From the IMG/VR virus record IMGVR_UViG_2894272399_000002, positions 17,174 to 81,173 of that record: a DNA stretch of 64,000 nt; one strand, written 5' to 3'. Both the position numbers and the translations under genes were made by a program. Origin of the DNA: a virus (Duplodnaviria; Caudoviricetes). The notes beneath the pieces are model-generated. The model saw only the letters and a list, made by a program, of their open reading frames with translations. It did no database searches and was not told where the DNA came from. How positions within the stretch are numbered: the stretch's first letter is position 1; every line of letters begins with the position of its first letter. Shown in pieces: positions 3,706-30,328 of the stretch.

Positions 3706-4227
3706 TTAGTCCTCGATGTTCAGATCCTCCATCAGCTGCGTCTCCGGCATTTGAGGGGTCGTCGTCCTCCTCGCTGCGCTCAGGTATCTGATAGAGTTTA
3801 TAAAATCCCCATAGTAGCTCATCTGAAGAATGATCAGCGTAAGTTTAAAGAGCATGCGCGAATTGATTCGCCAATAGAAGTAATCAGCCAGGAAAGGGAA
3901 GATAAACCGGAAGAGCGGGCTATTGCCAAGCACTGCGATTGCCACGATCCGCGCGCACCGTTTTGTATGCTTTTTGGTCAGGTTTTTAGCCTCTTTCAGA
4001 TAGGGGTCTTTTTCAAGCAACTCCTCATCCAGATCAAGCTTGATATATTCGTCCGAAAGCCTGTCCATGACTCCCAGGGGCGGGCTTTTAATGTGGAATT
4101 TGCGGAGTTTGGTTTTACTCAGTGAACCCGTCCAGCGCTTGGGAACTTCAAAAAACATCCCGCGACTATTGAGAAGGTCAAGTTCTTTCTGTTCTGCTTC
4201 CCTGGGATCAAATGGCTGTTCTTCCAT
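3706..4227 (-). CDS. Tail assembly chaperone, gpG-like
   Basis: 173 aa, positioned between major tail protein and TMP. Confidence 0.72.
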   Translation of the reverse strand: MEEQPFDPREAEQKELDLLNSRGMFFEVPKRWTGSLSKTKLRKFHIKSPPLGVMDRLSDEYIKLDLDEELLEKDPYLKEAKNLTKKHTKRCARIVAIAVLGNSPLFRFIFPFLADYFYWRINSRMLFKLTLIILQMSYYGDFINSIRYLSAARRTTTPQMPETQLMEDLNIED

Positions 4228-4241
4228 AGTGTGTATTGAAT

Positions 4242-4265
4242 AAAAGCCTCAACTGGGAGGCTTTT
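4242..4265 (-). terminator. Intrinsic terminator/attenuator after the major tail protein gene
   Basis: AAAAGCCTC-AACTGG-GAGGCTTTT inverted repeat with T tracts on both strands. Confidence 0.7.
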
Positions 4266-4292
4266 ATGTCTGTTATGATGTGAATTACAGTA

Positions 4293-4799
4293 TTACGCGA
4301 CTTTCGGCCCGAATTTCCATGGCCCTGTATTCGCTTTATCAGGCTTGAGAACCGAAAGCAAAAGCTGAGCAGTGAACAATCCGTCTTTCTGAAGATTGTA
4401 AGCAGCCTTTGCGGAGATCTGAACGCGAACGAAAGTGAGGTAAAATCCTTTTTTGGGAACAATACGAATTGACTTTTCAATGGTCTGCGCCTGCAAAGGT
4501 GCCTCCCAAACTTTGGCGTCTCCGGAACCGGTTACGGCCCCACCGAAATAATCAACCATTTTATCAGGTGTCATATCCATGACGGACATGTTCAAAGTAA
4601 GCGCTCCCTGAGTCACATCCTTGTCGAGTGGTTGATCTGACTGGATGGACATAAAATCTTTTGTCGTCGGATCAGCCTGGGTCAATGATGCAGTTTCATC
4701 CGCATAAACCGCCCCGACTGTTTCCCAGACGGTTGCAACACCGCCATCTTCGGCTATATCGCCAAATTCGACATCACTGGTACCCCTGGTTACTGCCAT
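4293..4799 (-). CDS. Major tail (tube) protein
   Basis: 168 aa, beta-rich; canonical position upstream of chaperones and TMP. Confidence 0.8.
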   Translation of the reverse strand: MAVTRGTSDVEFGDIAEDGGVATVWETVGAVYADETASLTQADPTTKDFMSIQSDQPLDKDVTQGALTLNMSVMDMTPDKMVDYFGGAVTGSGDAKVWEAPLQAQTIEKSIRIVPKKGFYLTFVRVQISAKAAYNLQKDGLFTAQLLLSVLKPDKANTGPWKFGPKVA

Positions 4800-4846
4800 T
4801 GTCGTGTGTGTTTATTATTAGTGTGTGTGATTACCGGTTACCCGGC

Positions 4847-5251
4847 TTATGCATTATAAATCGTATGATCAATTCTGAAATTGATATAGTGTTGTCCTAT
4901 ATCCGGCTCTTGAAACACTCCCTGACCGGCAACCCAAAAATCATGATCATCAGTACTGAATTCTTTCAAGAGCTCAATAGCCAAATCGGAGAGAACCTTT
5001 ATCCTTCCCGAGTCCTTGATATTGTGGTTCGAAGAGCCTGGAACGGAAACGTCCTTTACATAAATGTTGACATTAGCAACCGCTCTCTGAATTCCTCCTA
5101 CCGTGATGGTCAGCGAATTGATGACAATGTCCTCGAGTTCAGACCCTGCGGCCCTTTCTCCCATCCAAACCCCGCCATTACAAGCCAAATCCAGATCACT
5201 ACCTTTGATATGTTCAAACAGAATGGACTCAACATCGGAAGTGGTTCTCAT
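4847..5251 (-). CDS. Tail terminator/completion protein
   Basis: 134 aa; synteny; VNIYV and HYINFRI strands. Confidence 0.65.
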   Translation of the reverse strand: MRTTSDVESILFEHIKGSDLDLACNGGVWMGERAAGSELEDIVINSLTITVGGIQRAVANVNIYVKDVSVPGSSNHNIKDSGRIKVLSDLAIELLKEFSTDDHDFWVAGQGVFQEPDIGQHYINFRIDHTIYNA

Positions 5252-5754: not shown

Positions 5755-6056
5755 TTGAAAAGACCTTCTGAAAACAATTTAACCGTACCTTTCAACCTGA
5801 CCTCTGCCCCATTTCTGACCTCGATTGTATCCCCGTTATTGAGCTTTGGACAGTTCTTTGGCGTGTAAATGATCGATGAATAGTCATAGAAACTACCGTC
5901 GTTCAGATCATGCTTTGTACCGTTTTCAGTCTCATCCCGGCAAGCCGAAACGTTGATCCATGAATCAGTGCCTGGTATGATATGCCCATGCGCATTCTGA
6001 TAGCCGCCTTCGGTCGTCTTTACGAAAAGCTGATATGGATACTGGGGCATTACCAT
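5736..6056 (-). CDS. Head closure (stopper) protein
   Basis: 106 aa, beta-rich; synteny. Confidence 0.6.
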   Translation of the reverse strand: MVMPQYPYQLFVKTTEGGYQNAHGHIIPGTDSWINVSACRDETENGTKHDLNDGSFYDYSSIIYTPKNCPKLNNGDTIEVRNGAEVRLKGTVKLFSEGLFNCRIWA

Positions 6057-6379: not shown

Positions 6380-6708
6380 TACTGTTTCTGATTTTCAGCA
6401 GCAGCTTTCGCTTCCTGTTCAGCTTTCAGTTTTGCAGCGGCATCGGCCTCTTGCGCGGCCTTCTCAGCAGCAGCTTTCGCAGCATCGTCAGTAGGCTCTG
6501 ATTTTGGTTTAACGGTCTTCTTTGGCGCCTCAATCAAGCCACGGCTCACAAGGCTTTCGAGCAATGCTTCGTCAAAATGACTCACATCATCACCTTCTTC
6601 ATAAGCCTTCTCAAAGTTGTCCCTGTCGCGAAACGGAGACAAAACCAGGTACCCGGATGAGACTTCCTGAGCCTCATCCGGGGTTTTGGTGGTGTTTTTC
6701 TTAGCCAT
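6379..6708 (-). CDS. Small capsid-adjacent hypothetical protein with Ala/Glu/Lys-rich tail
   Basis: TAATG-coupled on both sides. Confidence 0.65.
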   Translation of the reverse strand: MAKKNTTKTPDEAQEVSSGYLVLSPFRDRDNFEKAYEEGDDVSHFDEALLESLVSRGLIEAPKKTVKPKSEPTDDAAKAAAEKAAQEADAAAKLKAEQEAKAAAENQKQ

Positions 6709-7796
6709 TATGCTTGAACTGTTTTAGAATCCAAAAGGTAGATCTGGTCTACGTTGGTCAGAACCGGCAGGGCCATCGCTTGTGAAGTGGTAAATTCCGC
6801 GAGTGAAGGCTGGTTGGTGCGATATTTCGATACCAAAACAAACTCATCGGCAACCTGATATTCTACACCAGCTACCGGAGCGTCAATTTCGGCTAGAGTC
6901 GTCCATGTAAGTGTTCCTACAGTTTCACCGGGCAAGAAGGCTACTTGTCCATCAACCCATGGTTTATAGTTGCTTCGAACCCCATTTCTTTCGATCCGGA
7001 TAGTCCTATCAACAACCTCTACCGTGAATTGGTATTTCTTGCGAAGCACTGTATTTAATTGATCAATGTCAGGTGCAAAAAGTGTAGTTCCTGATGGTTG
7101 GTTTATTGAATTCGCGTATGCTTCTTTAACCTGAGTGGTAGCAACAAGGTTGTCAAATGCCGTGTTGTCGAGCATCACTTTTCCAATTGCATTCCCATCC
7201 CCGCTCACTTTCTTCCGTAGCCTTTGAATGTCGTCTAACGGAGTCGCCGAAGCGGCGTTTGACCATACTACAGCTACACCAAATTTATTCGCTGATGGAA
7301 TACCATAATCAACCCGAATTCCAGCACCGACATTCTCCATATCTTCGATAACGGTCATTCCTGAGGAGATTGCCTCAAGTAAGTTGCCTTCAAGCCTCTC
7401 AGATACCCCGGCAATGCATCGTGGTGTGTCAGCAAATAGCTTCTTAAGCAATTGCGGAATTGTGCTGTTTTGCAATCTCAATATTTGCAACTGCTTTAAT
7501 TGACTTTCATTCAAAGCAAGCCTCATACCGATTTTTGGAATATCTCCACTAGCTTTACTTACGACGTCGCGCATTTTTAATGGCAATGGCGAATCCATTG
7601 CAACAATATCAGCGGCCACGATTGAGCTTGCGGCGGAAATGGACTCCCATTTGCCCGTAGCAGAAAAATCACGCGTCAGCATCGTACGATAGCGATACGT
7701 CAAAGGATTTTTCGTGTTATTTAGCGTTTCTACATAAGCCGCAACTAATGGGCCAAAATTGCGCTTGATATACTCGATGAACTGTGACTGTTCCAT
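6708..7796 (-). CDS. Major capsid protein (lambda gpE-like family)
   Basis: 362 aa; AADIVAMDSPLP, GDIPKI and RVDYGIP motifs; downstream of scaffold and decoration genes. Confidence 0.88.
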   Translation of the reverse strand: MEQSQFIEYIKRNFGPLVAAYVETLNNTKNPLTYRYRTMLTRDFSATGKWESISAASSIVAADIVAMDSPLPLKMRDVVSKASGDIPKIGMRLALNESQLKQLQILRLQNSTIPQLLKKLFADTPRCIAGVSERLEGNLLEAISSGMTVIEDMENVGAGIRVDYGIPSANKFGVAVVWSNAASATPLDDIQRLRKKVSGDGNAIGKVMLDNTAFDNLVATTQVKEAYANSINQPSGTTLFAPDIDQLNTVLRKKYQFTVEVVDRTIRIERNGVRSNYKPWVDGQVAFLPGETVGTLTWTTLAEIDAPVAGVEYQVADEFVLVSKYRTNQPSLAEFTTSQAMALPVLTNVDQIYLLDSKTVQA

Positions 7797-7833
7797 TTTC
7801 TAGTGTGTGTTTCAAATGTTATTTAATGGAAGC

Positions 7834-8232
7834 TTAGTCTGCCCTCCAAGTGATCGTCGGAACTGCCGTCTTGAATGCCGACAAAATAGACGTCATCGAA
7901 AATGGAGTTGCTTCGGGGTTGACCGTACCATTAGTAAGGATGCCTGCCATGGGGAGAGACTTCAAGACCGATGCCCTTAATACACCAACATAGACGTGGT
8001 TTGCCGGCAAAGAGCCATAGACAGTGTCATTGGTAGTAAGAGGCATAGGTTTAAAATCTTTCGAAACCGTGTCTTGAATTATGACATGTCCAGCATAGAT
8101 TACTGCCGGGCCAAAGCCAGTTACATCCAGAGATCGGCCTCCCTCGATGCCATCAAGAGCAAGCTTGATAACCACCGATTCTTTACCAGTATTAATTTGA
8201 ACACTGGCGCCATTCAGAGTTGTTGTAGCCAT
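7834..8232 (-). CDS. Head decoration protein (gpD-like)
   Basis: 132 aa between scaffold and MCP; IEGGRSLD..AGHVII..YVGVL. Confidence 0.7.
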   Translation of the reverse strand: MATTTLNGASVQINTGKESVVIKLALDGIEGGRSLDVTGFGPAVIYAGHVIIQDTVSKDFKPMPLTTNDTVYGSLPANHVYVGVLRASVLKSLPMAGILTNGTVNPEATPFSMTSILSAFKTAVPTITWRAD

Positions 8233-8239
8233 TTTTTTA

Positions 8240-8932
8240 TTATGGAAGTATGCTTTTTAACAATGCAGATGCTTCCTCCTTGGAAGCCTCCTTTCCGGCC
8301 GCGCCACCTGTCGGAGTGTATGGCCTTTGAGATTGACCCAAACCCTGATCATTAATGGACTGGGAAATTTCAGCTAAATCAGCCTCGGTTTCAGTGATGT
8401 AAGTGTCAAAGTCTTCATCCTTTTCGAATGAGATCCGTCCAAAGTCTTTCAGGATCTTCGCTTTGATCTTTTCAGGAGCGTCCTTAATTTTTGATTCAAG
8501 AATTTGTTTCCTTGACTCGGAAGTTTTGCCGGATTCGATGGCTGTTAGCTTGTCAGAGAGTTTTTTATTTTCCTCAGCTTGCGCTTTCTGGCTCTCAATC
8601 AAAGCTTTTGCCCACTCTGGCACCTCGTCTGAATCTTTTTTTGTAGTCTTTTTGGCGGTTTCGGATTCGACCCCGTCAGATTTCGCTTTTTCAGCGGCTG
8701 TTTTGTCTTCTTCCTCTTTATCCTTTTTAGCTTTTTCAGCAGCGGCGATGCGAGCATCGATTTCGGATTGGAAAACTTTCAATATCGGACCGACCCCGTC
8801 AACAGCTTCTTCGATTTCGGTTTCTTCTTTTACGCTTTTCTCTAAATAGTCGAGAACCGCATTGATGGCTTTTTGGCTGTACCCAAGCGATTTATACTTG
8901 TTTACGAGAACCACTTTGATTTTTTCTTTCAT
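8240..8932 (-). CDS. Capsid scaffolding protein
   Basis: Charged and helical, with VPEWAKAL motif; start placed at ATG 8932. Confidence 0.72.
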   Translation of the reverse strand: MKEKIKVVLVNKYKSLGYSQKAINAVLDYLEKSVKEETEIEEAVDGVGPILKVFQSEIDARIAAAEKAKKDKEEEDKTAAEKAKSDGVESETAKKTTKKDSDEVPEWAKALIESQKAQAEENKKLSDKLTAIESGKTSESRKQILESKIKDAPEKIKAKILKDFGRISFEKDEDFDTYITETEADLAEISQSINDQGLGQSQRPYTPTGGAAGKEASKEEASALLKSILP

Positions 8933-8970
8933 GAAAACCTCATGTGTGTATAGCGTGTGTGTTGAATGCA

Positions 8971-9113
8971 CAAATATAAAAATAAATATATTCTAAAAAC
9001 AAATGTATTTAAATCATTAAAGAAAATATTTTATTGTCATTTGATGACATTAAAGAATAATATTAAAATGAATATCAATTTATATATGTTTTATTTCAGA
9101 ATGTATATATTTG
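8971..9113. promoter_or_regulatory. Divergent late promoter region
   Basis: TATATTTG (-7 consensus TAnnTTTG) at 8971-8978 on minus and 9106-9113 on plus. Leftward -33 TTTG with 21-nt spacer. Central palindrome TGTCAT-TTG-ATGACA at 9035-9049. Confidence 0.75.
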
Positions 9114-9140
9114 CATAATAACACACACTAAGAGAAGGTA

Positions 9141-9590
9141 ATGCGATTGATCAGCACAGTGCTCACACTACTGTTAATGTTGTCAACCCTGGGATCACTT
9201 CAGGCGCAGACTACATTCACCATTACCATCCCTCAGGACGTAGCCACTAAAGAGTGGGTTCAGGATTACGTCAAAAAGAAGATTGATAGCCTGAACGCTA
9301 TTCAGCATGCCCCATTCCCGCCCTGCACTCAAGGCCCCGAGATACGCGAGATAATAACTGCATCGAAAGACTACCTAACCGTAAAATTCCACGGTGTGAA
9401 TGTCACCTCGCTGGACTACATCATTTTCAATAACGCCCAAATCAGAACGGGGCGATTAAAGCCTGAGTCAAGCACAATCAAATTCAGCTTTAAAGAACTT
9501 CCAACCGGGACGTATTCACTGACCCTGAGCGGCGGAATGTGCACAGGTTCAGACACAAAGACATTTAAGATTAAGAACAACACACTATAA
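9141..9590 (+). CDS. Signal-peptide protein with ATxxWV motif and one Cys-pair Ig-like domain
   Basis: Signal ends LQA|Q; VATKEWVQDY; C-x2-GP...G-x2-C domain. Confidence 0.75.
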   Translation: MRLISTVLTLLLMLSTLGSLQAQTTFTITIPQDVATKEWVQDYVKKKIDSLNAIQHAPFPPCTQGPEIREIITASKDYLTVKFHGVNVTSLDYIIFNNAQIRTGRLKPESSTIKFSFKELPTGTYSLTLSGGMCTGSDTKTFKIKNNTL

Positions 9591-9591
9591 A

Positions 9592-12168
9592 ATGAAGGGC
9601 ATATTTCGTTTACTTCTCTTACTGATATCGCTGCCTGCGCTGAGCCAGTCGACAATCACAGTGCCTTCTTCGGGTACGGTCGCGACCGAGGCATGGGTAA
9701 AAGAATACTTCTTCGAGCAGCTTGAAAAGTATGCAATCTCTGATTGTGACCTCAAAGCTGTCGACGTTACTCATGACGGTACGTCGCTTGAATTTGGACT
9801 GTCGGGCACACCTCCGGATCTGAACAATTATTCCGTCCGAATCACCAAAGGCTCGCAGATCTGGTATTGGAATGATATCCCATATGTTGCAGGTGAACGA
9901 CTAAGGATCGAAAACGTACCAAGCATTGATTCAGCTAGGGTAACGATCCGCCCGGTCATTCGACCTACCTGTTACTATTCTTTTGGTTATAATCTTGGAG
10001 GGGGTGAAAATCCGGATCCCGGGGAAGATACGACTGTCGTCACTCCTGTTTGTCAGGCTGGCCCGACGATCCTGTCTGTATATAATGTAACAGCATCAGG
10101 TCTTACTACCCAGTTTCACGGTAACGGCGTAACCCTTTTACAATATAAGGTAAAAGATGGTACCGGTGCGACCATACGCACAGGTCAGATAGCGCCATCT
10201 TCTTCCATTCTGAATATTGGTTTCTCTTCTGACATTACGGCCGGAAGCTACACGCTCAGGCTTGAAGGTGTTTCCTGTATTGGATTTAGTGAAAAACAGT
10301 TTACCCTTGAAGTTGGCGGTGGTGGGCCGCCCCCTTCCGGTAATGTCGTAGCCAAACAGGTAACCAAAGGTCTGCCCGAACACATGAACCTGGTGATTAC
10401 CGGGACAGGTGCAGACAAGAAGATCACAGACCTTGCCACAATCACTCCTCCCGACGGATACGAATTCCGTTATTTTATCAACGACCAAGTTGTTAAGCAG
10501 TCGACAAGGCTTATCAACTACCCCTGGCCTTCCGAAGTCCCTCTTGCAGTCTACAAGTTCCAGATCCGGCCAGATGTAAACAGCATTTATACATGGGGTT
10601 ACGATGAAGGCTGGAAAGACCCGAACGCGGGACGGACATTCAGCTACAATACAACTTGCGCTTTTGCCACGTTCGTTTTCGACGACGAAGCATCAGGATA
10701 TAATTCTTCCAAGCGGGTTCCGCAATGGATGGATTACCTGCCCGATATGCCCGCAACAGACGGGAAGATCTGGGTTATGCCAAAAGGCCCGATCAACACG
10801 ATCGATCAGCTCACCTCAAAGGGAGTAACCAACTTTTCAAACTACGAGATTGCCAGTCTTTCAAGTGCGGAGATTAACGCGCTTGCGAATGCAGGGAGGA
10901 CGTACGACGAAGTACCTCAAACTCAAAGCCAATTAAGCCTACCTGATCGCGGTGCTGGTCAATGGAAACCTGACGGTGTTGGTTGGCCTGGCAACTGGAA
11001 TACAAGGTTCTTCGATTACACGCCAGGTCAAAGCGAACCTCTTACCAATGAACAAGGGGCAGCCAAAGGCAATCAATACTCCGTCACCCATAGGCTTGTT
11101 GTATTTGAAAACAGCGAGCAGGATCACGCGATTGGTACTCAGTGGAGCTTCTGGAAACCTTACTACCAAAACTATACTGCCCGGCATAACTCAAGATTTC
11201 CGGGAACGGCACGGGTTGCACATAATTACTTCACCGGCCCCATCAATCAATATCCTGACGGTTCATCCTGGGATAGCAAGAAAGCGGCTTACGGCTCAAA
11301 TCCTTCTGTATTAGGATATGCGAACAGGTTACAGACAAAGAACTTACTGATTGCTCCGGTTTCAGATTGGCCTCCTTCCAATATGCTTCCGGGCAACAAT
11401 ATGGAGGATGTCAATTCTGCATGCTACGGGTTGTACTTTAATGATATCGGCGATACGCCCAACAATCCTTACCGGATGATCTATAAGGCGCATTTAACCC
11501 ACAAGGTCAATAAATACCTGTTGGGATTCATGCAGACCTTTTACGAGTGGAACCCTAACAACCTGCAAGAAACCGTCTTTCCGGAAGGCAAATTCTATAA
11601 GTATGTGAAGATGCCGCATAGCCCGGCGCAGGTCATTACATACGCCTTTATCAGCCGCGTATTCCTGGATGGATTTATCCCCTTTACCGCCGCCTCGAAA
11701 ACAGACGGAAATTTCCGCTACGACAAACAATGGTGGGGAAATAGCCTCTGGTATCCCAACGGAGCCACAAGCCCACAGAATAACGATTCATTCCCATACT
11801 GGAAACAGCCGGGACAAAACGAAGCCTTTGCAACGTCAGGCTTTGAGGATGCGGTGGGGATCGGGATGTATGAATACTACAAAACATTCATGCAGACGGC
11901 TGGCGGGACTCGTCAATTCCTCCGGTACCGATTAGATGGCGGGGCATGGGTTGAAGCACAAAACAACAATCTATATGATGTTGTCGATGCTTTCTACGAC
12001 AAAAGGGCAATCGTTTTCAGTGAGGTCAAAGCCGGAAAACTGGCGGTTATGTACCTGAACCCCTATGCTGACGGAGCAGTCCGGAATCTTGAATACCAAT
12101 ACAATGGAGTCACTTATTCAATGCCTGTCGCCTCGGTGATGGTGCATGCTAAACTGCATAATTTATGA
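9592..12168 (+). CDS. Large signal-peptide protein: ATxxWV motif, Ig-like domains, aromatic-rich C-terminal domain (possible glycan binding or hydrolase)
   Basis: 858 aa; signal ends ALS|Q; VATEAWVKEY; shares the Cys-pair domain with its neighbours. Confidence 0.7.
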   Translation: MKGIFRLLLLLISLPALSQSTITVPSSGTVATEAWVKEYFFEQLEKYAISDCDLKAVDVTHDGTSLEFGLSGTPPDLNNYSVRITKGSQIWYWNDIPYVAGERLRIENVPSIDSARVTIRPVIRPTCYYSFGYNLGGGENPDPGEDTTVVTPVCQAGPTILSVYNVTASGLTTQFHGNGVTLLQYKVKDGTGATIRTGQIAPSSSILNIGFSSDITAGSYTLRLEGVSCIGFSEKQFTLEVGGGGPPPSGNVVAKQVTKGLPEHMNLVITGTGADKKITDLATITPPDGYEFRYFINDQVVKQSTRLINYPWPSEVPLAVYKFQIRPDVNSIYTWGYDEGWKDPNAGRTFSYNTTCAFATFVFDDEASGYNSSKRVPQWMDYLPDMPATDGKIWVMPKGPINTIDQLTSKGVTNFSNYEIASLSSAEINALANAGRTYDEVPQTQSQLSLPDRGAGQWKPDGVGWPGNWNTRFFDYTPGQSEPLTNEQGAAKGNQYSVTHRLVVFENSEQDHAIGTQWSFWKPYYQNYTARHNSRFPGTARVAHNYFTGPINQYPDGSSWDSKKAAYGSNPSVLGYANRLQTKNLLIAPVSDWPPSNMLPGNNMEDVNSACYGLYFNDIGDTPNNPYRMIYKAHLTHKVNKYLLGFMQTFYEWNPNNLQETVFPEGKFYKYVKMPHSPAQVITYAFISRVFLDGFIPFTAASKTDGNFRYDKQWWGNSLWYPNGATSPQNNDSFPYWKQPGQNEAFATSGFEDAVGIGMYEYYKTFMQTAGGTRQFLRYRLDGGAWVEAQNNNLYDVVDAFYDKRAIVFSEVKAGKLAVMYLNPYADGAVRNLEYQYNGVTYSMPVASVMVHAKLHNL

Positions 12169-12428: not shown

Positions 12429-12553
12429 CTAAAATCGAAAAAGCAATCCTCCTTGGACTTGTAGCGATCACAGCAGCCGGTATGCTGACACTTTGCTACG
12501 GAGCTTATCAAAACCAAAAAAACAGAGAAACGCATGAAGAACCCTGGGGTTAA
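12425..12553 (+). CDS. 42-aa single-pass membrane peptide
   Basis: Manual translation MTKIEKAILLGLVAITAAGMLTLCYGAYQNQKNRETHEEPWG; ATGA-coupled. Confidence 0.5.
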   Translation: MTKIEKAILLGLVAITAAGMLTLCYGAYQNQKNRETHEEPWG

Positions 12554-12762
12554 GAAAGCAACCAGTAAGCCCTGCCAGAGTTGCAAGATAAAATGTGCAA
12601 GGCCAAGGGATCCGAGGCGACCAAAGAAAGAAGATAACGAATTACCATAGTTCTTATTGTGCGGTTAATGGTGAGCAAAAGGTGTCGGAAGGTTTTCTGA
12701 CATCTTTTTAAAAGACCAAAACCCCGATCAAGAAGTAAGAATACCAAAGTACACACACGATA

Positions 12763-14829: not shown

Positions 14830-14866
14830 CTTCCCTTCCACACATGAACATTTTAAAAGAAGACCA

Positions 14867-15512: not shown

Positions 15513-15955
15513 TGAAGACACAAAAGCAGTTAATCGAGAAGTTCGGCAACCCGGCGGTAGATAACATCACATTTGAAAGAAAATGGATGACATTATGGCA
15601 TGTTCCGGAAGCTATCGGTGATCATATTCCGGCTATTCCTGGTAAGATATACCTCAATAATCTGATCAAAGAACGCCTTGAAACGACTTTGTTCGCATTG
15701 ATAGAAGCTGACCTTCATTCGGAGATTAAAACATTTGACGGCTGCTTCAACATACGCAAGAAACGGGGACTAGAAACACTTTCCTTACACGCCTTTGGGA
15801 TAGCAGTAGATCTTAACGCGGCCTGGAACCAATTAGGCAAGCCAAGTACCTGGAGTAATGATTTTATTGAAGTATGGCGGCGCAATGGATGGGAATGTGG
15901 CGCAGACTGGAAGGGACGGATTGATGCAATGCACTTCCAATGGGATAATTTTTAA
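15506..15955 (+). CDS. Endolysin, M15 family zinc peptidase
   Basis: SLHAFGIAVD (SxHxxGxAxD) and DAMHFQ motifs. Confidence 0.88.
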   Translation: MVMKTQKQLIEKFGNPAVDNITFERKWMTLWHVPEAIGDHIPAIPGKIYLNNLIKERLETTLFALIEADLHSEIKTFDGCFNIRKKRGLETLSLHAFGIAVDLNAAWNQLGKPSTWSNDFIEVWRRNGWECGADWKGRIDAMHFQWDNF

Positions 15956-15961
15956 CACACT

Positions 15962-17023
15962 ATGAATAAGGTTAAACACGCTTTTTGCTTCCCTGGTGGT
16001 GGTTTTAAAGGGGCCACGCAAGTAGGCTTTCTGAAAGCTGCCATAGAGCACAATATCCATGCAGACATTATCAGCGGCACTTCCGTCGGAACGCTGGTAG
16101 GAGCTTTTGCGGCTATGCGCAAGTACAATTTACTTTTCGACCTATGGGATCATGTAGGTAAAACGAATGGTTCTATCATCACAAAAACCTATCTGGCTGA
16201 GCTTCGTGACGGAGGTGTTTATCCAAACATCGACCAGATTAAAGACATTCTTACAAATGGGATTGGCTTCAAAGACAAGATCGGGTTAATCACCAAAAAA
16301 GGCCAGCAGAAGTTTATCCAGAAAGTAATCGAGAACGGTAAATCCATCGATAAAATCATGGACAACAGCCCGCTCTTCGACTTACTGACACAACACGTAT
16401 TCAAAAAAGACTTTCAGGCTGACTTCCATTTCACGCTGGTGAGCCTTTATGACGGGAAGTTGTACAAGGTCAATCAAAACAGCTTTGCCGATGATCATAA
16501 CCTTCGTCTTGGCATGCTGGCAAGTACCGCAATGCCCGGAGTATGGGCTCCGATTCCATGGATCAGGTTAGCCGACGGAACATTTATCCGGGACGCGGTG
16601 GACGGTGGACTCAGAATGTCCAGCCCGCTTCCGCTGATTATGTCAAAGCTCACAAAAGGAAATCCATGGAAGGTTTACACTCCGAACGCAAATAGTATCT
16701 ATCAGTCAATCAATGATCAGAAAAAGAATCTGGTCACCCAGGCGGCTTCTGCTATTGATATACTTCTCAATGAGGGGCTTCAACGGGATATCAAAATGAC
16801 CGAGAAGATCAACGAATGGGCTTTGAAGTATCCGGAATGGGCAGAGAAGGAAGGGATTGTATATGCCGAGCTCTTCAACATCGAAGTGCCGCTCAACGAG
16901 AGAGGCGAAAGTTTGCTCGGTCGAACACTTGACCCGCGGGCAGAATGGATTGAAAAGCGGATCCAGATCGGGTACGAAAGCGCGACTAAGATTTTCCAAA
17001 ACCTTTCAACTCAGGCGGCATAA
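15962..17023 (+). CDS. Patatin-like phospholipase
   Basis: GGGFKG, GTSVG (GxSxG) and DGG motifs. Confidence 0.9.
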   Translation: MNKVKHAFCFPGGGFKGATQVGFLKAAIEHNIHADIISGTSVGTLVGAFAAMRKYNLLFDLWDHVGKTNGSIITKTYLAELRDGGVYPNIDQIKDILTNGIGFKDKIGLITKKGQQKFIQKVIENGKSIDKIMDNSPLFDLLTQHVFKKDFQADFHFTLVSLYDGKLYKVNQNSFADDHNLRLGMLASTAMPGVWAPIPWIRLADGTFIRDAVDGGLRMSSPLPLIMSKLTKGNPWKVYTPNANSIYQSINDQKKNLVTQAASAIDILLNEGLQRDIKMTEKINEWALKYPEWAEKEGIVYAELFNIEVPLNERGESLLGRTLDPRAEWIEKRIQIGYESATKIFQNLSTQAA

Positions 17024-17313: not shown

Positions 17314-17321
17314 ACACACTA

Positions 17322-19502: not shown

Positions 19503-19548
19503 GAATCGCAGTCGCTTAAAAAAGTAACAAACACACACGCTATATAAA

Positions 19549-21585: not shown

Positions 21586-21597
21586 CCATACACACAC

Positions 21598-21981: not shown

Positions 21982-21996
21982 AATACACACTAAAAT

Positions 21997-23808: not shown

Positions 23809-23812
23809 TTTC

Positions 23813-24988: not shown

Positions 24989-26441
24989 CATATCGTATTA
25001 CCAACTCCTCGATGATATTGAACGTGAAGCATGTAGGGATTCTTTTTACGAGTTTTTGCAGTCTTTTTGGGACGTGATCATCAAAGAAACCCCTGTATTC
25101 AATTGGCACATTAAATTTCTATGCGACGAGCTGCAAGAACTATCTAAAAGCATTGTGAGAAGAGAGGCAAAACCATACGATCTGATTGTAAACATCCCGC
25201 CTGGAACGACAAAATCCACGGTGACAACGATCATGTGGCCTGCATGGTTATGGACTCAGGATCCGACGATCCGGATTATCACAAATTCCTACTCCATGGA
25301 CTTGTCGATAGAGCATGCGGTTAAATCGCGCGATATTCTCACTTCCGAAAAGTTTAAACGCCTTTTTCCTGAAGTAAAGATCCGGAAAGACAAAGGGGCC
25401 AAGTCCTCCTATGAGAACACAAACACCGGCGCCCGTTACACTACATCTACCGGCGGTACGATTACAGGTAAGCATGCGCACATCCTGATCAGTGATGACC
25501 CGTTAAATCCAAGCCAGGCCGCATCCGACGCAGACAGGAAGGCCGCTAACGAGCACACTAAAACTTTGTCGTCGCGTAAGGTCGATAAAGCCAATACGCC
25601 AGTGATTACCATCATGCAGCGACTTCATGAGGAAGACGTGACGGGATATCTTCTCAAAAAGAAGGGCGAAAAGATCCGGCATTTGAACCTGCCCGCCGAA
25701 GACAGTGAAAAAGTTCTTCCCGCGGAAGTACGGGCAAAGTATATTTCTGGCTTGCTGGATCCTGTTCGCTTAAACAGGTCGGTTCTGGATGAAGCGCTGA
25801 CCGATCTTGGATCTATGGGCTATGCCGGTCAGTACGATCAATCGCCGACTGCGAAAGGCGGGAACATCGTAAAAGCAACCTGGTTCAAATACATGTCCTC
25901 CGCCAGCTTTCAGTCGATACGGACACCACAGAACCCGGTAGTTTTCTTCATGGACACGGCCTACACGGACAAAGACCAGGACAATGACCCAACTGGCATA
26001 ATTGCCACATGCAAAATCGGAGCAGACTTATACATCACCAAAGCGGCTAAGGTTTACAAAGAATTTCCAGAGCTCATCAAATTCGTCCCGGATTGGGTTC
26101 GGGCCAATGGCTACTCCAACCAAAGTACATTGCGAATTGAACCGAAAGCGTCGGGGTTGTCGGTTGTTCAGCAACTGAAAAGAACGACCGATATCAACAT
26201 CACGACAACGCCGACACCGAAGGACGATAAGAAAACCAGGCTAACCGCGTCGTCTCCAAAGATCGAATGCGGCCGTGTGATCCTGATAACCGACACATGG
26301 AACGAAGACTTCGTTGACGAAATATGCGGTTTCCCAAACAAAACACACGATGAATACGTGGATTTGATCGCCTACGCGGTTGATTACCATTTGAACACAC
26401 CCAAGACTCAGTCACACGCTATACACAACGCTTTTAGATGA
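24960..26441 (+). CDS. terL: Terminase large subunit
   Basis: NIPPGTTKS Walker A, ISDDP Walker B, MQRLH, and nuclease motifs DTAY...HDEYVD. Confidence 0.93.
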   Translation: MHGKLIEQSSISYYQLLDDIEREACRDSFYEFLQSFWDVIIKETPVFNWHIKFLCDELQELSKSIVRREAKPYDLIVNIPPGTTKSTVTTIMWPAWLWTQDPTIRIITNSYSMDLSIEHAVKSRDILTSEKFKRLFPEVKIRKDKGAKSSYENTNTGARYTTSTGGTITGKHAHILISDDPLNPSQAASDADRKAANEHTKTLSSRKVDKANTPVITIMQRLHEEDVTGYLLKKKGEKIRHLNLPAEDSEKVLPAEVRAKYISGLLDPVRLNRSVLDEALTDLGSMGYAGQYDQSPTAKGGNIVKATWFKYMSSASFQSIRTPQNPVVFFMDTAYTDKDQDNDPTGIIATCKIGADLYITKAAKVYKEFPELIKFVPDWVRANGYSNQSTLRIEPKASGLSVVQQLKRTTDINITTTPTPKDDKKTRLTASSPKIECGRVILITDTWNEDFVDEICGFPNKTHDEYVDLIAYAVDYHLNTPKTQSHAIHNAFR

Positions 26442-27856: not shown

Positions 27857-27859
27857 GCC

Positions 27860-28048
27860 ATGGACGATCTCGTATTACAGATAATCAACGCCTGCATCCA
27901 GCAAAGAAAAGATTCCGGTCTTACACCGCATCATGTGACTTTGATCAACCTTGACAGAAGCATAAAAGACTCGCTGAACCGGCTTTATTCTGCCGGTAAA
28001 ATCAAGGTTGGGGATACAATTAACGATAAATACATTGATGTTTTATGA
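27860..28048 (+). CDS. Small hypothetical protein (winged-helix-like)
   Basis: LNRLYSAGKIKVGDTIND; coupled in the operon. Confidence 0.55.
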   Translation: MDDLVLQIINACIQQRKDSGLTPHHVTLINLDRSIKDSLNRLYSAGKIKVGDTINDKYIDVL

Positions 28049-28569
28049 GTGATAAAAAAATAGTGGCAGCTCCTGAATTAAAGAAATTAGAGAATAATCT
28101 AAATAGCATCACCGAGTTATGTACAATTTCTGGACTTGCGTCGGTCTCCGCTGATCTCATCACGTGCCTTGTTGCCGAAAAGATCGGAAGCGGTTGCTAT
28201 CGATCCGTTTACGAGTACAACCTAGATCCAAAATATGTTATTAAGATCGAGCCATTAAACACTAACTGTAATATCACAGAGTACTTATTGTGGAATGAAA
28301 TACGCGGATTAACAGGGGATCTTGCATGGGTTAAGGACTGGTTCGCCCCAGTGAAATGGATGTCCCCAAACGGACGCGTTCTTGTCATGGAACGTACAAA
28401 GCAAAACTACAAAAAGAAGAAGCCAACTGAGATTCCTAAGTTCATGTGGGATGTAAAGGAGGATAACTTCGGATGGATTGGCAAAAAATATGTTTGCCAC
28501 GACTATGGTCAGTTTTACAACTTCATTCATTACTCGAAGGCAATGCAAAAGGTCGGCAATCGGTGGTAG
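28045..28569 (+). CDS. Minimal protein-kinase-fold enzyme
   Basis: IGSGCYRSVY Gly-loop, VIK lysine, LVME hinge, DVKEDN catalytic loop, HDYG in place of DFG. Confidence 0.72.
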   Translation: MSDKKIVAAPELKKLENNLNSITELCTISGLASVSADLITCLVAEKIGSGCYRSVYEYNLDPKYVIKIEPLNTNCNITEYLLWNEIRGLTGDLAWVKDWFAPVKWMSPNGRVLVMERTKQNYKKKKPTEIPKFMWDVKEDNFGWIGKKYVCHDYGQFYNFIHYSKAMQKVGNRW

Positions 28570-28642
28570 CCGTCCGTCTAAGAATAAATGACGTTTATCT
28601 AAGCAATGACTTAGATCTCTGTCTAAACACACAACACACACT

Positions 28643-30328
28643 ATGCCAAAGTTTTCAGTCGAAGGCTGGGACGGCGAACATTTCAAAAGGACGGAGGTTT
28701 TCGCCAAACAGGTTCGGAATATTTACCTTGCTGCAATCCGGGAAGCAATCCGTATGGGGTTGTCTGTTAATTACGACCCGAGCAAACCGTTCTCGTTCTC
28801 CAAATTCCCAGTCTTAAATCAGCGGGTCAAAAAGCTCTTTGGTGACCTATCCGATAAGATCGAAGCTGTCATAACCGATGGCATCAACTCCGAATGGGAG
28901 TTTGCCAACGACAAAAACGACTCGTTTCTTAATAGTGTCCTGAAAACCGACAAGATGCCTGAGCGGGCGCTGGCCAGGTTAACGGGACGAAACAATGAAG
29001 CACTCGTTCAGTTCCAGCAGCGACGGACAAACGGACTCGGCTTATCCGACCGGGTATGGAACACGAACCAGCAATTCCGGTCCGAGTTAGAAATGGCCTT
29101 GGAGCTTGGCATTGCCGACGGACGATCAGCTGATCAACTCAGCCGTGATATCCGTTCTTACCTGGAAGACCCAGACAAGCTTTTTCGAAGAATAAGGGAG
29201 CGAGAGAACGGGCCGCTGCGATTGTCCCAACATGCCAAGAATTACAAGCCCGGACGCGGTGTTTACCGAAGCTCGTATAAAAACGCTCTTCGCCTGACTC
29301 GTACGGAGATCAATATGGCTTACAGGGAGTCCGATTTTGCCCGCTGGAAGAACTTTGACTTCGTTGTTGGGATAGAGGTTAGGCGTAGTAATAACCCCTA
29401 CCCTTGCATTGTTTGCGAGAGTTTAAAAGGCCGCTACCCAAAAACATTCAAGTTCAGATCCTGGCATCCGCAATGCCGCTGTCATGCCATTTCAATTCTG
29501 GCCACGGAGAAGGAGATCAATGAGATGGAGTTGAAAATGCTCAATGGGGAAGATACTTCGGAATTTGTCAGTAAAAATGAGGTTAGGGAAATGCCCGCCG
29601 GACTTACCAGCTGGATTAACGACAATAAGCAACGACTTCTTTCCTCAGCAAGTCAGCCGTATTTTATACAGGACAACTTTAAAGGCGGGCATCTTTCCGG
29701 AGGATTAAAATTAACGTTGCCCGGCGATCCAATTGATCCATACATCAAAGCAACCAGATCGAAAGAAAACGTTTTTGCGAGACGATCCACCGATATTGCG
29801 AAAGCACTGAGAGTGAAAGTTACTGACGTGAACAAGAAATCGATCAGTCGAATTGTGGAGAAAGCGAATGCGGACTACGGCGGCGATATAACCCAAGTTC
29901 ACGACATCATTAGAAATACCTTTATCTCATCAACTCTGGTTTCTCCTGAGGATATCCTCGACAAAGTCAATGAAGAATTCCAGGTAATCAAAGTGAAAGA
30001 ACAATCAGCAAGTAAAGATCCTATGGGATATAGCGGGATTCTTGTTCAAGTCCTTTTAGAAAAGAACATTTTTGCAGAAATCCAGATCAATACACCGCAG
30101 ATGATTTACGCAAAAGAAGCAAATGCAAAAGAAATTCTCGGGGATGACTTATTCGAGGAAATTCAAGCCGCTTCAGGACTGGAACACGGCCTTGGACATG
30201 CTTATTATGAAGAATACCGAACCATTGACCAGTCCACAAGTAAAGGGAAAGAATTGGCTCTTAAAGTGATGGACAAATCGAAAAAATACTATGAGAAGCT
30301 TCGATCCGCGGCATTAAAATCAAAATGA
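28643..30328 (+). CDS. MuF/SPP1 gp7-like head morphogenesis protein with C-terminal RelA/SpoT-type synthetase toxin domain (Apk2-like)
   Basis: MuF motifs RLTRTE...C..C..L.G.Y...WHPQCRC; C-domain KS..RIVEK, DIIR, GYSG, EIQINT, GH..YE. Confidence 0.85.
   Translation: MPKFSVEGWDGEHFKRTEVFAKQVRNIYLAAIREAIRMGLSVNYDPSKPFSFSKFPVLNQRVKKLFGDLSDKIEAVITDGINSEWEFANDKNDSFLNSVLKTDKMPERALARLTGRNNEALVQFQQRRTNGLGLSDRVWNTNQQFRSELEMALELGIADGRSADQLSRDIRSYLEDPDKLFRRIRERENGPLRLSQHAKNYKPGRGVYRSSYKNALRLTRTEINMAYRESDFARWKNFDFVVGIEVRRSNNPYPCIVCESLKGRYPKTFKFRSWHPQCRCHAISILATEKEINEMELKMLNGEDTSEFVSKNEVREMPAGLTSWINDNKQRLLSSASQPYFIQDNFKGGHLSGGLKLTLPGDPIDPYIKATRSKENVFARRSTDIAKALRVKVTDVNKKSISRIVEKANADYGGDITQVHDIIRNTFISSTLVSPEDILDKVNEEFQVIKVKEQSASKDPMGYSGILVQVLLEKNIFAEIQINTPQMIYAKEANAKEILGDDLFEEIQAASGLEHGLGHAYYEEYRTIDQSTSKGKELALKVMDKSKKYYEKLRSAALKSK

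What the first reader, a model, noticed from the sequence alone, without database searches (positions are those of the whole stretch)
4225..28645. ACACAC motif at the translation starts of most non-coupled late genes
Seen: an (A)CACAC(AC) run lies within about 30 nt upstream of 14 starts in both late operons: 4227, 4799 (x2), 7796, 8932 (x2), 9141, 9592, 12763, 15962, 17322, 19549, 21598, 21997, 26438 and 28643 (x2). The longer form CACACGCTATA occurs at 8949-8959(-), 19534-19544 and 26413-26423. It is always on the mRNA strand. Late genes without it are mostly stop-start coupled, and early genes rarely have it (weak cases near 32569 and 61698). Known: Bacteroidota largely ignore SD sequences. 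Inference: a phage-specific translation enhancer, an RNA-binding-protein site or a processing signal for late mRNAs.
Basis: partly seen in the sequence, partly recalled or inferred. Interest (0 to 1): 0.78.

Follow-up and report, generated by a model that had tools for sequence, protein, structure and literature searches.

The report
Phage start-codon tag matches host sRNA
A prophage of a soil bacterium puts the same short C/A-rich word just before the start codon of most of its separately started particle-building (late) genes, and that word mirrors the unchanging core of an undescribed small RNA of the host, so the host RNA may gate virus-particle production.

Summary
CACAC lies within 30 nt upstream, on the sense strand, of 14 of 26 late genes, against 122 of 6237 genes genome-wide and 1 of 38 in the rest of the window. 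It marks independently started genes: 14 of 19, against 2 of 13 overlapping ones. The scan noted this motif before in other Dyadobacter prophages (e1-5906652, e1-5906658) and read it as a translation enhancer.

New here:
1. The host uses the word too, before mobilome/defence genes but not before core translation genes.
2. The host chromosome encodes a candidate small RNA with no Rfam match. It is single-copy in 61 of 62 genomes of the genus and detected in 18 of 51 genera of the family. It has an invariant G/U-rich stretch followed by a covarying terminator hairpin.
3. That stretch is complementary over 10-15 nt to 13 late-gene sites. The three best predicted duplexes among 6301 genes are all late genes.
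4. Five related prophages in hosts without an sRNA hit lack the motif.

Best reading (confidence about 0.5): the motif is the docking site of this host sRNA at the translation-initiation region, probably repressive, and may also be a C/A-rich enhancer. Expression and regulation are untested.

The parts
8943..8957 (-). Long-form motif before the first gene of the minus late operon (scaffold-like, start 8932). It has 15 contiguous nt complementary to the sRNA seed with one G-U, ending 10 nt before the ATG.
   Evidence: Best duplex of 6301 genes, -28.0 kcal/mol.
7801..7810 (-). Motif before the major capsid gene (start 7796). 10-nt complementarity, ending 4 nt before the ATG.
   Evidence: MCP assignment: PHROG. 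The motif is kept before the L047 orthologue.
4804..4828 (-). Two motif copies before the major-tail-like gene (start 4799). The distal copy, 4819-4828, has 10-nt complementarity.
4226..4236 (-). Motif abutting the ATG of the tail-chaperone-like gene (start 4227). 11-nt complementarity, preceded by a terminator-like hairpin.
3491..3498 (-). Weak motif (8 nt) before the tape-measure gene (start 3482), which overlaps the upstream ORF by 1 nt.
   Evidence: TMP assignment: PHROG.
9121..9130 (+). Motif before the first gene of the plus late operon (start 9141). 10-nt complementarity.
9580..9589 (+). Motif before the 858-aa gene (start 9592). It lies inside the 3' end of the upstream ORF. 10 nt.
12749..12758 (+). 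Motif before the 688-aa gene (start 12763), at the ATG end of a 334-nt spacer. 10 nt.
15955..15964 (+). Motif abutting the start of the patatin-like gene (15962). 10 nt, in a 6-nt spacer.
17314..17321 (+). Motif (8 nt) abutting the start of the beta-helix tail-spike-like gene (17322).
19533..19545 (+). Long-form motif before the collagen/lyase tail-fibre gene (start 19549). 13-nt complementarity.
21588..21597 (+). Motif abutting the start of the 127-aa gene (21598). 10 nt.
21983..21992 (+). Motif before the 603-aa tail-fibre-like gene (start 21997). 10 nt.
26415..26427 (+). Long-form motif before the portal gene (start 26438), inside the 3' end of the terminase gene. 13-nt complementarity. A further ACACAC lies at 26395-26400.
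   Evidence: Second-best duplex of 6301 genes, -24.0 kcal/mol.
28627..28645 (+). Two motif copies before the MuF-like head gene (start 28643). The proximal copy has 12-nt complementarity and overlaps the ATG.
   Evidence: Third-best duplex, -23.3 kcal/mol.
8971..8978 (-). TAnnTTTG box 8 nt upstream of the motif run of the minus late operon. Likely late promoter -7 element (the consensus is recalled, not from a call).
9106..9113 (+). TAnnTTTG box 7 nt upstream of the motif of the plus late operon. Likely late promoter -7 element (consensus recalled).

Best explanation
The word A-ACACAC(AC)-U-A(-U-A), with its long form CACGCUAUACACACA, is an mRNA element placed 0-22 nt upstream of the start codons of the independently initiated late genes of a siphovirus-type prophage. 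The host is an SD-less Bacteroidota bacterium, probably Dyadobacter.

The motif is most likely the docking site of a chromosomally encoded host small RNA at G000:C35, about 444871-444975, plus strand, outside the window. The invariant single-stranded stretch of that RNA, AUAGUGUGUGUAUAGUG, is the Watson-Crick mirror of the word.

Pairing would cover the region that a 30S subunit must occupy. The default inference is therefore that the sRNA blocks or tunes translation initiation of late genes. One possibility is a threshold lock that keeps leaky late transcripts silent in the lysogen and is titrated out when late transcription bursts.

By analogy with the ACA enhancers targeted by GcvB, the C/A-rich word may also be an intrinsic enhancer of SD-independent initiation, which the sRNA silences.

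Shown here: placement, strand, conservation in related prophages, use by the host, existence and conservation of the sRNA-like gene, and the complementarity. Inferred: that the RNA is made, that it pairs in vivo, and the sign of its effect.
For: 1. Start linkage.
- CACAC in -30..-1: 14 of 26 late genes, 122 of 6237 genome genes, 1 of 38 genes in the rest of the window.
- 14 of 19 uncoupled late genes have it, against 2 of 13 coupled ones.
- It sits at the ATG end even of spacers of 47-334 nt.
- No conserved boxes lie upstream of it in 21 anchored sites.

2. Selection.
- Related prophages keep the word at orthologous and at different genes while the flanks diverge (L047, L001, G132, G149).
- PWM >=10 start-proximal hits: 12 of 34, 12 of 42, 11 of 33 and 7 of 51 genes.

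3. A reader exists in the host without the phage.
- 22 host genes at PWM >=12, against 0 and 0 in two controls of 6301 regions.
- 5 of 5 HEPN-NTase paralogues and 3 of 5 IS200-like paralogues keep ACACAC next to the ATG.

4. The sRNA candidate.
- Single copy in 61 of 62 genomes of the genus.
- Covariance-model hits in 36 of 151 family genomes, 18 of 51 genera.
- In 17 copies from about ten genera the 15-nt core is invariant and the 5' part cannot be aligned.
- The hairpin has 15 pairs, 96.1% of cells paired and 6 pairs with compensatory changes; 0 of 500 shuffles reach these values and slid controls give 37-57%.
- A U-run follows the hairpin and a terminator is called there.
- The G/U-rich strand pairs better than the opposite strand, 96.1% against 85.3%.
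- No plus-strand gene lies upstream, so it is its own transcription unit.
- No Rfam match at E <= 1 apart from one sub-threshold chance hit.

5. Complementarity.
- 13 late genes have 10-15 contiguous complementary nt.
- The top 3 duplexes of 6301 genes are late genes.
- Late genes at >=10, 11, 12 and 13 nt: 12, 5, 4 and 3 with the true seed. The reversed seed and eight 2-nt-block shuffles give 0-1 at >=10 and 0 at >=11.
- Starting from the sRNA: of 28 genome-wide sites of >=13 nt outside the sRNA gene, 3 lie in the late region (0.4% of the genome), and all 3 are start-proximal and sense.

6. Co-occurrence.
- Five related prophages in hosts without an sRNA hit: 1 of 189 genes at PWM >=10 and 0 of 189 at >=10 nt complementarity.
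- The 10-mer count in ten sRNA-positive genomes of eight other genera is 102, about 80 outside the sRNA genes, against 39 for the backwards control. In ten sRNA-negative genomes it is 26 against 26.
- In G270, another sRNA-positive genus, four consecutive genes of a polysaccharide operon each carry the word before the start.
Against: - No expression data. No RNA run was listed, so whether the sRNA is made is unknown.
- I picked the sRNA candidate by eye from 208 anti-motif 7-mer hits in non-coding DNA. The core match is therefore circular. Only the flanks, the terminator, the covariation and the conservation are independent.
- G/U-rich seeds pair promiscuously. The bulk duplex energies upstream of genes do not differ from inside-gene windows or from 10 shuffled seeds.
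- Genome-wide sites of >=12 nt are no more numerous than for the reversed seed, 98 against 93.
- A host regulon is not demonstrated: 10 host genes at >=12 nt, against 2-9 for the control seeds.
- Many motif sites (the HEPN-NTase genes, 17322, 3482) offer only 7-8 nt of pairing.
- All motif-using prophages found are in one genus, so host genus, phage relatedness and sRNA presence are confounded.
- Two prophages in sRNA-positive hosts use the motif little or not at all: G081 3 of 51 genes and G131 0 of 51.
- If the sRNA simply harmed the phage, the sites should have been lost. Their retention needs either a benefit to the phage or an enhancer constraint, and neither is shown.
- The seed contains a direct repeat (ATAGTGTG twice, 11 nt apart), which could also be read as a DNA operator.
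- The promoter of the sRNA is only a near match to the recalled consensus.
Confidence: 0.5

Rival explanations
1. The motif is a purely cis-acting C/A-rich translation-initiation enhancer. It is an unstructured, G-free leader word read directly by the SD-blind ribosome or by protein bS1, and the match to the host sRNA is irrelevant.
For: - Start linkage and use at uncoupled genes.
- The host lacks SD.
- ACA motifs enhance translation in Salmonella (Yang et al. 2014, PMC3879156; abstract read).
- Many sites offer only 7-8 nt of pairing.
- By eye, a prophage in G131 uses a different C/A-rich word before several starts.
- Two earlier scan notes reached this reading.
Against: - None of the 36 ORFs listed (EF-Tu plus the cluster holding EF-G and the ribosomal-protein operons) has CACAC upstream, so it is not the host's signal for high expression.
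- Host users are mostly low-expression mobilome/defence genes.
- Lack of structure alone does not explain the fixed flanks (U-A-n-A) or the long form. These match the sRNA in the true orientation but not reversed.
- It does not explain why related prophages in hosts without the sRNA, in the same family, lack the word.
Confidence: 0.3
2. The motif is the binding site of an RNA-binding protein, or a cleavage signal of an endoribonuclease. The protein could be the host's single RRM-domain protein. The nuclease could be an ACA-type cutter that trims late polycistronic mRNAs just before each start.
For: - Sense-strand, start-proximal placement.
- Hairpins precede several sites.
- The host has no Hfq hit but has one RRM_1 protein.
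- The word holds several ACA triplets.
Against: - No phage protein co-varies with motif use (partial coverage).
- Nothing in the data points to a particular protein or to cleavage.
- A protein site does not predict a 13-15 nt mirror match to a conserved RNA.
- An RRM protein could equally be the chaperone of the sRNA, so this is not an exclusive alternative.
Confidence: 0.1
3. The motif is a DNA-level signal. It could be an orientation-specific operator that blocks late transcription in the lysogen, like the stoperators of mycobacteriophage L5, or a late promoter or initiator element.
For: - The sites are asymmetric, in one orientation relative to transcription, and lie in non-coding spacers of both operons.
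- The two sites at the divergent region lie 7-8 nt downstream of TAnnTTTG boxes.
- The conserved chromosomal element holds a direct repeat with 11-nt spacing.
Against: - Only 2 of about 15 sites have a promoter box, and no conserved upstream positions appear in 21 anchored sites.
- Several sites lie 0-6 nt from the ATG inside 6-15 nt spacers, which leaves no room for a transcript start.
- The motif sits at the ATG end of long spacers rather than anywhere within them.
- Prophages whose fetched early regions share little with this one carry the same word, and so do host genes.
- The chromosomal element has a covarying hairpin, a U-run and strand-asymmetric G-U pairs, as expected of an RNA.
Confidence: 0.05

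Closest known systems
GcvB sRNA and its C/A-rich (ACA) target elements in enterobacteria (Yang, Figueroa-Bossi and Bossi 2014, PMC3879156, abstract read; the earlier Genes Dev 2007 work is recalled only)
   Same: A conserved G/U-rich single-stranded sRNA region pairs with C/A-rich words just upstream of start codons of many mRNAs. The C/A-rich word is itself a translation enhancer that the sRNA silences.
   Different: GcvB acts in SD-using, Hfq-containing Proteobacteria on amino-acid transport genes. Here the host has no SD usage and no Hfq hit. The RNA shares no family with GcvB (no Rfam match). The densest set of sites is a prophage late module. Regulation is untested.
Start-Associated Sequences (SAS) of Cluster K mycobacteriophages (Pope et al. 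2011, PMC3203893; passages of the SAS section read)
   Same: A short asymmetric repeat in one orientation, a few nt upstream of many start codons of a phage, conserved across related phages at genes of different families.
   Different: SAS are 13 bp, contain an SD-like AGGAG core, lie in the non-structural half and are virtually absent from the host genome. Here the word has no G and marks structural genes. It also occurs before host genes, and a candidate reader has been identified.
AgvB, a prophage-encoded anti-sRNA that mimics GcvB targets in EHEC (Tree et al. 2014, PMC4104026, abstract read)
   Same: A prophage carries sequence that mimics the mRNA target of a core-genome G/U-rich sRNA, which couples the phage to a host sRNA network.
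   Different: AgvB is a dedicated small decoy RNA. Here the mimic or target sites sit in front of 13 or more protein-coding late genes. Whether they are regulated by the sRNA, titrate it, or both is unknown.
SD-independent initiation in Bacteroidia (Baez et al. 2019, PMC6847099; Jha et al. 2021, PMC7797042; PMC13000457; only the starts of the abstracts were seen in the listing)
   Same: The host context is the same: no SD, with initiation tuned by mRNA structure and upstream nucleotides, especially adenines.
   Different: From what I saw of those papers, they describe general nucleotide preferences, not a discrete repeated word or an sRNA partner. Core genes of this host show A/U-rich leaders and not the ACACAC word.
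Stoperators of mycobacteriophage L5 and Cluster A phages (recalled; mentioned in a passage of PMC3203893)
   Same: Many asymmetric sites in one orientation relative to transcription, in short intergenic spaces.
   Different: Stoperators are DNA sites of the phage repressor and are not tied to start codons. Here the sites track the ATG and also occur before host genes.

Membership tests
Target site of a trans-acting base-pairing sRNA | Extended complementarity to a conserved, accessible region of the sRNA, beyond chance | tested here: met
   10-15 nt at 13 late genes. With the reversed seed and 8 shuffled seeds, late genes give 0-1 at >=10 nt and 0 at >=11 nt. The top 3 duplexes of 6301 genes are late genes. 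Accessibility of the seed is only partly supported: a weak A-U/G-U hairpin is predicted over its first half.
Target site of a trans-acting base-pairing sRNA | The site lies where pairing can affect initiation (within roughly -20..+19 of the start; range recalled) | tested here: met
   The complementary runs end from 3 nt inside the start codon to 19 nt upstream of the ATG.
Target site of a trans-acting base-pairing sRNA | sRNA-dependent change in expression, rescued by compensatory mutation | not testable with these tools
   Needs genetics and reporters.
Trans-acting small RNA gene (the C35 element) | Rho-independent terminator: a hairpin with covariation followed by a U-run | tested here: met
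   15 pairs, 96.1% paired, 6 compensatory, 0 of 500 shuffles. Terminator called. U-run present in 17 of 17 copies.
Trans-acting small RNA gene (the C35 element) | A conserved seed with a variable remainder, and no conserved ORF | tested here: met
   The 15-nt core is invariant in 17 of 17 copies from about ten genera, and the 5' part cannot be aligned, so no conserved reading frame exists.
Trans-acting small RNA gene (the C35 element) | Own promoter and a detectable transcript | tested here: inconclusive
   A promoter-like block is conserved within the genus, but it is only a near match to the recalled TAnnTTTG consensus. No plus-strand gene lies upstream. No RNA run was listed.
Shine-Dalgarno sequence | Purine-rich complement of the 16S 3' end upstream of starts | tested here: not met
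   The word has no G in its core. GGAGG is depleted upstream of host starts (14 and 13 per 10-nt bin, against about 50 further upstream). The host 16S could not be read: nothing was found and 1570 bases are withheld.
Bacteroidota housekeeping promoter (-33 TTTG / -7 TAnnTTTG; consensus recalled) | A -7 box at a fixed distance upstream of each site | tested here: not met
   Only the two sites flanking 8972-9140 have the box. Information content is near zero upstream of the motif.
Start-Associated Sequences of Cluster K mycobacteriophages | A 13-bp word with an SD-like core, in non-structural genes, virtually absent from the host | tested here: not met
   The sequence is different, it marks structural genes, and 22 host genes carry it at PWM >=12. 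The resemblance is in placement only.
ACA-type translation enhancer | ACA triplets upstream of the start whose mutation lowers translation | not testable with these tools
   The sequence feature is present: 2-4 overlapping ACA per site. Enhancer activity is untested. Core high-expression genes lack the word.

The most novel reading that the evidence does not exclude
A core, family-conserved small RNA of SD-less Bacteroidota works as a translational gate on temperate-phage morphogenesis. The phage lineage keeps a docking site for this host RNA in front of nearly every independently initiated late gene. Particle proteins are then made only when late mRNA outnumbers the sRNA. In turn, the burst of 13 or more sites per genome copy sponges the sRNA and releases its host targets (surface-polysaccharide and mobilome/defence genes) at induction.
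Probability: 0.25. Interest if true: 0.9.

Novelty: new variant of a known kind. Interest (0 to 1): 0.78.

Why it matters
How ribosomes and regulators pick start codons in Bacteroidota, which ignore the Shine-Dalgarno signal, is an open question, and very few base-pairing sRNAs are known in the phylum.

This finding gives a concrete, testable pair. One partner is an undescribed sRNA candidate with an invariant 15-nt core in 17 aligned copies from about ten genera. The other is a repeated start-codon word that mirrors it.

If the pairing is real, it would be a case of a host core sRNA wired into almost the whole late module of a temperate phage, which I have not seen described. My searches of the held library found no paper with the seed sequence and nothing relevant among five papers for 'Dyadobacter' plus 'sRNA'.

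It would also offer an explanation for the kind of start-associated repeat that has stayed unexplained in mycobacteriophages since 2011.

If the pairing is not real, the motif is still a clean natural example of a discrete non-SD start signal, suitable for reporter work.

Tried and rejected
- **Pairing with 16S rRNA.** The RF00177 search of the genome found nothing and 1570 bases are withheld. I did not try to read them another way. From recall, the Bacteroidia 16S 3' tail holds no GUGUGU.
- **Expression data.** No RNA holder was listed for window:4000-10000.
- **A phage-encoded anti-motif RNA.** Every ACACAC/GTGTGT hexamer in the late region is on the sense strand of the local genes, and no GTGTGT lies in non-coding DNA of the window.
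- **Known RNA families.** None in the window at gathering score. In the sRNA locus there is only a sub-threshold chance hit to an L31 leader (20.3 bits against a cut-off of 33.3).
- **Raw pattern counts without gene context.** ACACAC-N(0-4)-ATG gives 151 hits against 159 for a GTGTGT control, so this was dropped as a way to map the motif across genomes.
- **A host regulon from complementarity or duplex energy.** Not separable from controls.
- **The second anti-motif locus (C22:307756-307781).** It is two sense-strand motifs before a 24-codon ORF, not an sRNA.
- **A phage-encoded reader.** No protein fits the user/non-user pattern. Coverage of the relatives' early regions is partial.
- **Hfq.** No hit.
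- **Distant relatives.** 53 of 55 MCP-related loci from other hosts have 0-1 PWM hits each, and all 55 loci together have 14 of 1071 genes.
- **Count corrections.** My running notes and comments gave 14, 12 and 8 motif genes for G132, G161 and G149. A recount gives 12, 11 and 7, as. G131 is 1 of 52 (40-nt window) and 0 of 51 (35-nt window).
- **Caveat on gene calls.** The gene lists come from a mechanical ORF caller, so some starts are wrong.
- **Caveat on labels.** I labelled the ribosomal-protein cluster from the EF-G Pfam hit and from reading N-termini, not from family searches.
- **Supplementary files** of the papers were not opened.

Full report
**What is there.** The window is G000:C37:135113-199112. 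Its first 30 kb hold the structural module of a siphovirus-type prophage.
- A minus-strand operon runs from 8932 to the left edge. It encodes a scaffold-like protein, the major capsid protein at 6708-7796, connectors, a major-tail-like protein at 4293-4799, a chaperone pair and the tape measure.
- A plus-strand operon runs from 9141 to 30328. It encodes two large unknown proteins, an endolysin-like protein, a patatin-like protein, a beta-helix protein, a collagen/lyase fibre, ParB-like and small-terminase-like proteins, the large terminase, the portal and a MuF-like protein.
- The two operons diverge from an AT-rich 168-nt region.
- The closest relative by capsid protein (71%) is a prophage in a record titled Dyadobacter sp., so the host is probably of that genus.

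**The observation.**
- CACAC is not over-represented in the window: 81 copies against 77.7 expected. ACACAC is: 36 against 19.2, reached by 0 of 100 shuffles. Of those 36, 31 lie in the late region on the sense strand.
- Placement is the signal. CACAC lies within -30..-1 of 14 of 26 late genes, 122 of 6237 genes elsewhere in the genome and 1 of 38 in the rest of the window (p = 2e-17).
- On a curated list of 32 late genes the word precedes 14 of 19 genes that start independently and 2 of 13 that overlap their upstream neighbour (p = 0.003).
- I anchored 21 sites (15 from the window, 6 from L047). The signal is compact, A-W-A-c-ACACAC-[U/G]-[A/C]-n-A-W, and ends 0-22 nt before the ATG. No information lies further upstream.
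- Only the two sites at the divergent region follow a TAnnTTTG box, a consensus I recall for Bacteroidota promoters. The motif is therefore not a promoter.
- In spacers of 47-334 nt it still sits next to the ATG, so it tracks the start codon and not merely non-coding space.

**Conservation in phages.**
- Of 55 loci related by capsid protein, only L047 (7 of 19 genes) and the viral contig L001 (4 of 19; capsid 52% identical) use the word. The other 53 have 0-1 hits each, and all 55 together have 14 of 1071.
- L047 and L001 keep the word at partly orthologous and partly different genes, with diverged flanks and spacing.
- Prophages of five other species of the genus, with portals only 36-40% identical, give start-proximal PWM >=10 hits in 12 of 42 (G132), 11 of 33 (G161, the same DNA as L047), 7 of 51 (G149), 3 of 51 (G081) and 0 of 51 (G131) genes. 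Nearly all hits in the heavy users lie in the structural part.

**The host uses it too.**
- The host shows no SD signal.
- A 12-nt PWM built from the window sites finds 32 start-proximal hits of >=12 bits among 6301 genes. Ten are late genes and 22 are host genes. Both controls, inside genes and on the antisense of the same upstream regions, give 0.
- Of the 20 best host genes, Pfam names these as mobilome or defence types: three IS200-like transposases, two HEPN-nucleotidyltransferase fusions, RhuM, a PD-(D/E)XK nuclease and Bro-N, plus an MrcB_N hit just under its cut-off and an XRE-type regulator.
- The other named ones are a sigma-70-family protein, DUF2851, DprA, a LytTR regulator, a cNMP-binding protein and an oxidoreductase. 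Four have no hit.
- All 5 HEPN-NTase paralogues (66-100% identical) and 3 of 5 IS200-like paralogues (38-51% identical) keep ACACAC next to the ATG while the flanks differ.
- None of the 36 ORFs listed for EF-Tu and the cluster holding EF-G and the ribosomal-protein operons has CACAC upstream. The word is therefore not the host's general high-expression signal, which weakens a plain 'strong enhancer' reading.

**A candidate reader.**
- An earlier scan note about another phage (e1-6118604) prompted me to scan the non-coding DNA of the genome for the anti-motif. There were 208 seven-mer hits, 69 of them simply antisense to gene starts.
- One hit, at C35:444921(+), has a G/U-rich stretch directly 5' of a hairpin and a U-run. 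A second, at C22, turned out to be two sense motifs before a 24-codon ORF.
- The C35 element is single-copy in 61 of 62 genomes of the genus. In 20 aligned copies a promoter-like block is followed by a variable 5' part and then an invariant block of about 78 nt. Conservation stops right after the U-run.
- BLAST finds relatives in 15 of 51 sampled genera of the family, and a covariance model finds them in 18 of 51.
- In 17 copies from about ten genera, the 15-nt core is invariant and the 5' part cannot be aligned.
- The hairpin keeps pairing through sequence change. It has 15 pairs with 96.1% of cells paired, and six pairs show compensatory changes. No shuffle of 500 reaches these values, and slid controls give 37-57%.
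- On the opposite strand only 85.3% of cells pair. With the U-run and the terminator call, this favours the G/U-rich strand as the RNA.
- The element lies between two minus-strand genes, a TerC-family gene and a 321-aa gene, so nothing upstream could read through into it.
- Rfam has no match. The held library has no paper with the seed sequence.

**The match.**
- The complement of the seed reads CACACUAUACACACACUAUA. Thirteen late genes carry 10-15 contiguous complementary nt (at most one G-U), ending from 3 nt inside the start codon to 19 nt upstream of the ATG. The remaining late genes have runs of 8 nt or fewer.
- By duplex energy, the three best of 6301 genes are late genes: -28.0, -24.0 and -23.3 kcal/mol.
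- With the true seed, 12, 5, 4 and 3 late genes reach >=10, 11, 12 and 13 nt. The reversed seed, which keeps the CA repeats, and eight 2-nt-block shuffles give 0-1 at >=10 and 0 at >=11.
- The congeneric users behave alike: 8 of 42, 10 of 33, 5 of 51 and 5 of 19 genes at >=10 nt, against 0, 0, 2 and 0 with the reversed seed.
- Starting from the sRNA, 3 of the 28 genome-wide sites of >=13 nt outside the sRNA gene fall in the late region, which is 0.4% of the genome. All 3 are start-proximal and sense.

**Results against this reading.**
- Bulk energies and total site counts do not differ from controls.
- A host-wide regulon is not demonstrated: 10 host genes at >=12 nt, against 2-9 for controls.
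- The core 7 nt of the match is circular, because that is how I found the element.

**Co-occurrence.**
- Five prophages related by major tail protein sit in hosts of the same family without an sRNA hit. They have 1 of 189 genes at PWM >=10 and 0 of 189 with >=10-nt complementarity. This fits the link, but host genus is a confounder.
- Outside the genus, ten sRNA-positive genomes of eight genera hold 102 copies of the 10-mer, about 80 outside the sRNA genes, against 39 for the backwards control. Ten sRNA-negative genomes hold 26 against 26.
- In G270, another sRNA-positive genus, four consecutive genes of a polysaccharide operon (Bac_transf, WecG, epimerase, GT9) each carry the word before the start.
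- G239 has four copies within about 110 nt of non-coding DNA.

**Mechanism.**
- Shown: a start-linked sense-strand word under selection in a phage lineage and in host genes, a conserved sRNA-like gene, and their specific complementarity.
- Inferred: the sRNA is made and pairs at the initiation region.
- Because the duplex would lie where the 30S subunit binds (range recalled), the likely effect is repression or a threshold on late-protein synthesis.
- By analogy with the ACA enhancers silenced by GcvB (PMC3879156, abstract read), the word may also enhance SD-independent initiation. That would explain why the phage keeps it.
- The host has no Hfq hit and one RRM protein, so any chaperone would be different.
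- No phage protein co-varies with motif use.

**Comparison and novelty.**
- In logic it works like GcvB and its C/A-rich targets. In placement it resembles the unexplained start-associated sequences of Cluster K mycobacteriophages (PMC3203893, passages read). It also recalls the prophage decoy AgvB (PMC4104026, abstract read).
- It is a member of none of these. It has a different sequence, an SD-less and Hfq-less host, structural genes as targets, and a host core RNA as the candidate reader.
- The motif itself was found before by this scan in other Dyadobacter prophages (e1-5906652, e1-5906658).
- I rate it a new variant of a known kind, with interest 0.78 and confidence 0.5 in the sRNA link.

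Noticed in passing
L096+L097 joined (G131:C1:521000-561000), gene starts at about 5250, 6493, 12420 and 15175 of the joined stretch: This congeneric prophage hardly uses the ACACAC word. Seen by eye only, a different C/A-rich word (TCATCAACAAC followed by A-rich sequence) precedes several start codons.
   Followed up: no
L166 (G239:C18) about 3890-3985, minus strand: Four motif copies lie within about 110 nt of non-coding DNA, and one is nearly the full complement of the sRNA seed. This could be a multi-site leader or a sponge for the sRNA, in a genus other than the window's.
   Followed up: partly
L165 (G270:C1:2664000-2683999) 8228-11858, minus strand: The first four genes of a surface-polysaccharide operon (Bac_transf, WecG/TagA/CpsF, epimerase, GT9) each have the motif before the start. 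In G000 the sRNA gene lies next to a row of minus-strand genes that by eye look like polysaccharide biosynthesis genes (not confirmed by a family search).
   Followed up: partly
window 12429-12762: A 334-nt stretch inside the plus late operon has no ORF of 60 aa or more on the operon's strand (two minus-strand ORFs overlap it). It has no Rfam match and its content is unknown.
   Followed up: no
window 28643-30328: The MuF-like head protein has a C-terminal region with a sub-threshold RelA_SpoT match (E = 1.8e-4) and strong PHROG matches to a family labelled Bxa ADP-ribosyl transferase. It may be a fused effector domain.
   Followed up: no
window 3482-4227, minus strand: The 173-aa chaperone-like ORF is followed by a 61-aa ORF that has no motif and no A-rich leader. 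This would fit a frameshift extension of the tail assembly chaperone rather than a separately started gene (inference only).
   Followed up: no
G000:C22:307700-307870, plus strand: Two motif copies precede a 24-codon ORF in an otherwise non-coding stretch.
   Followed up: partly
G192, G203 and G268 (family genomes): Some genomes outside the genus hold up to four covariance-model hits for the sRNA, two of them in tandem on one contig (G192:C356). The RNA therefore forms a small multi-copy family in some genera.
   Followed up: no
window 15962-17023: A patatin-like phospholipase gene sits inside the late operon just after the lysis-like genes.
   Followed up: no
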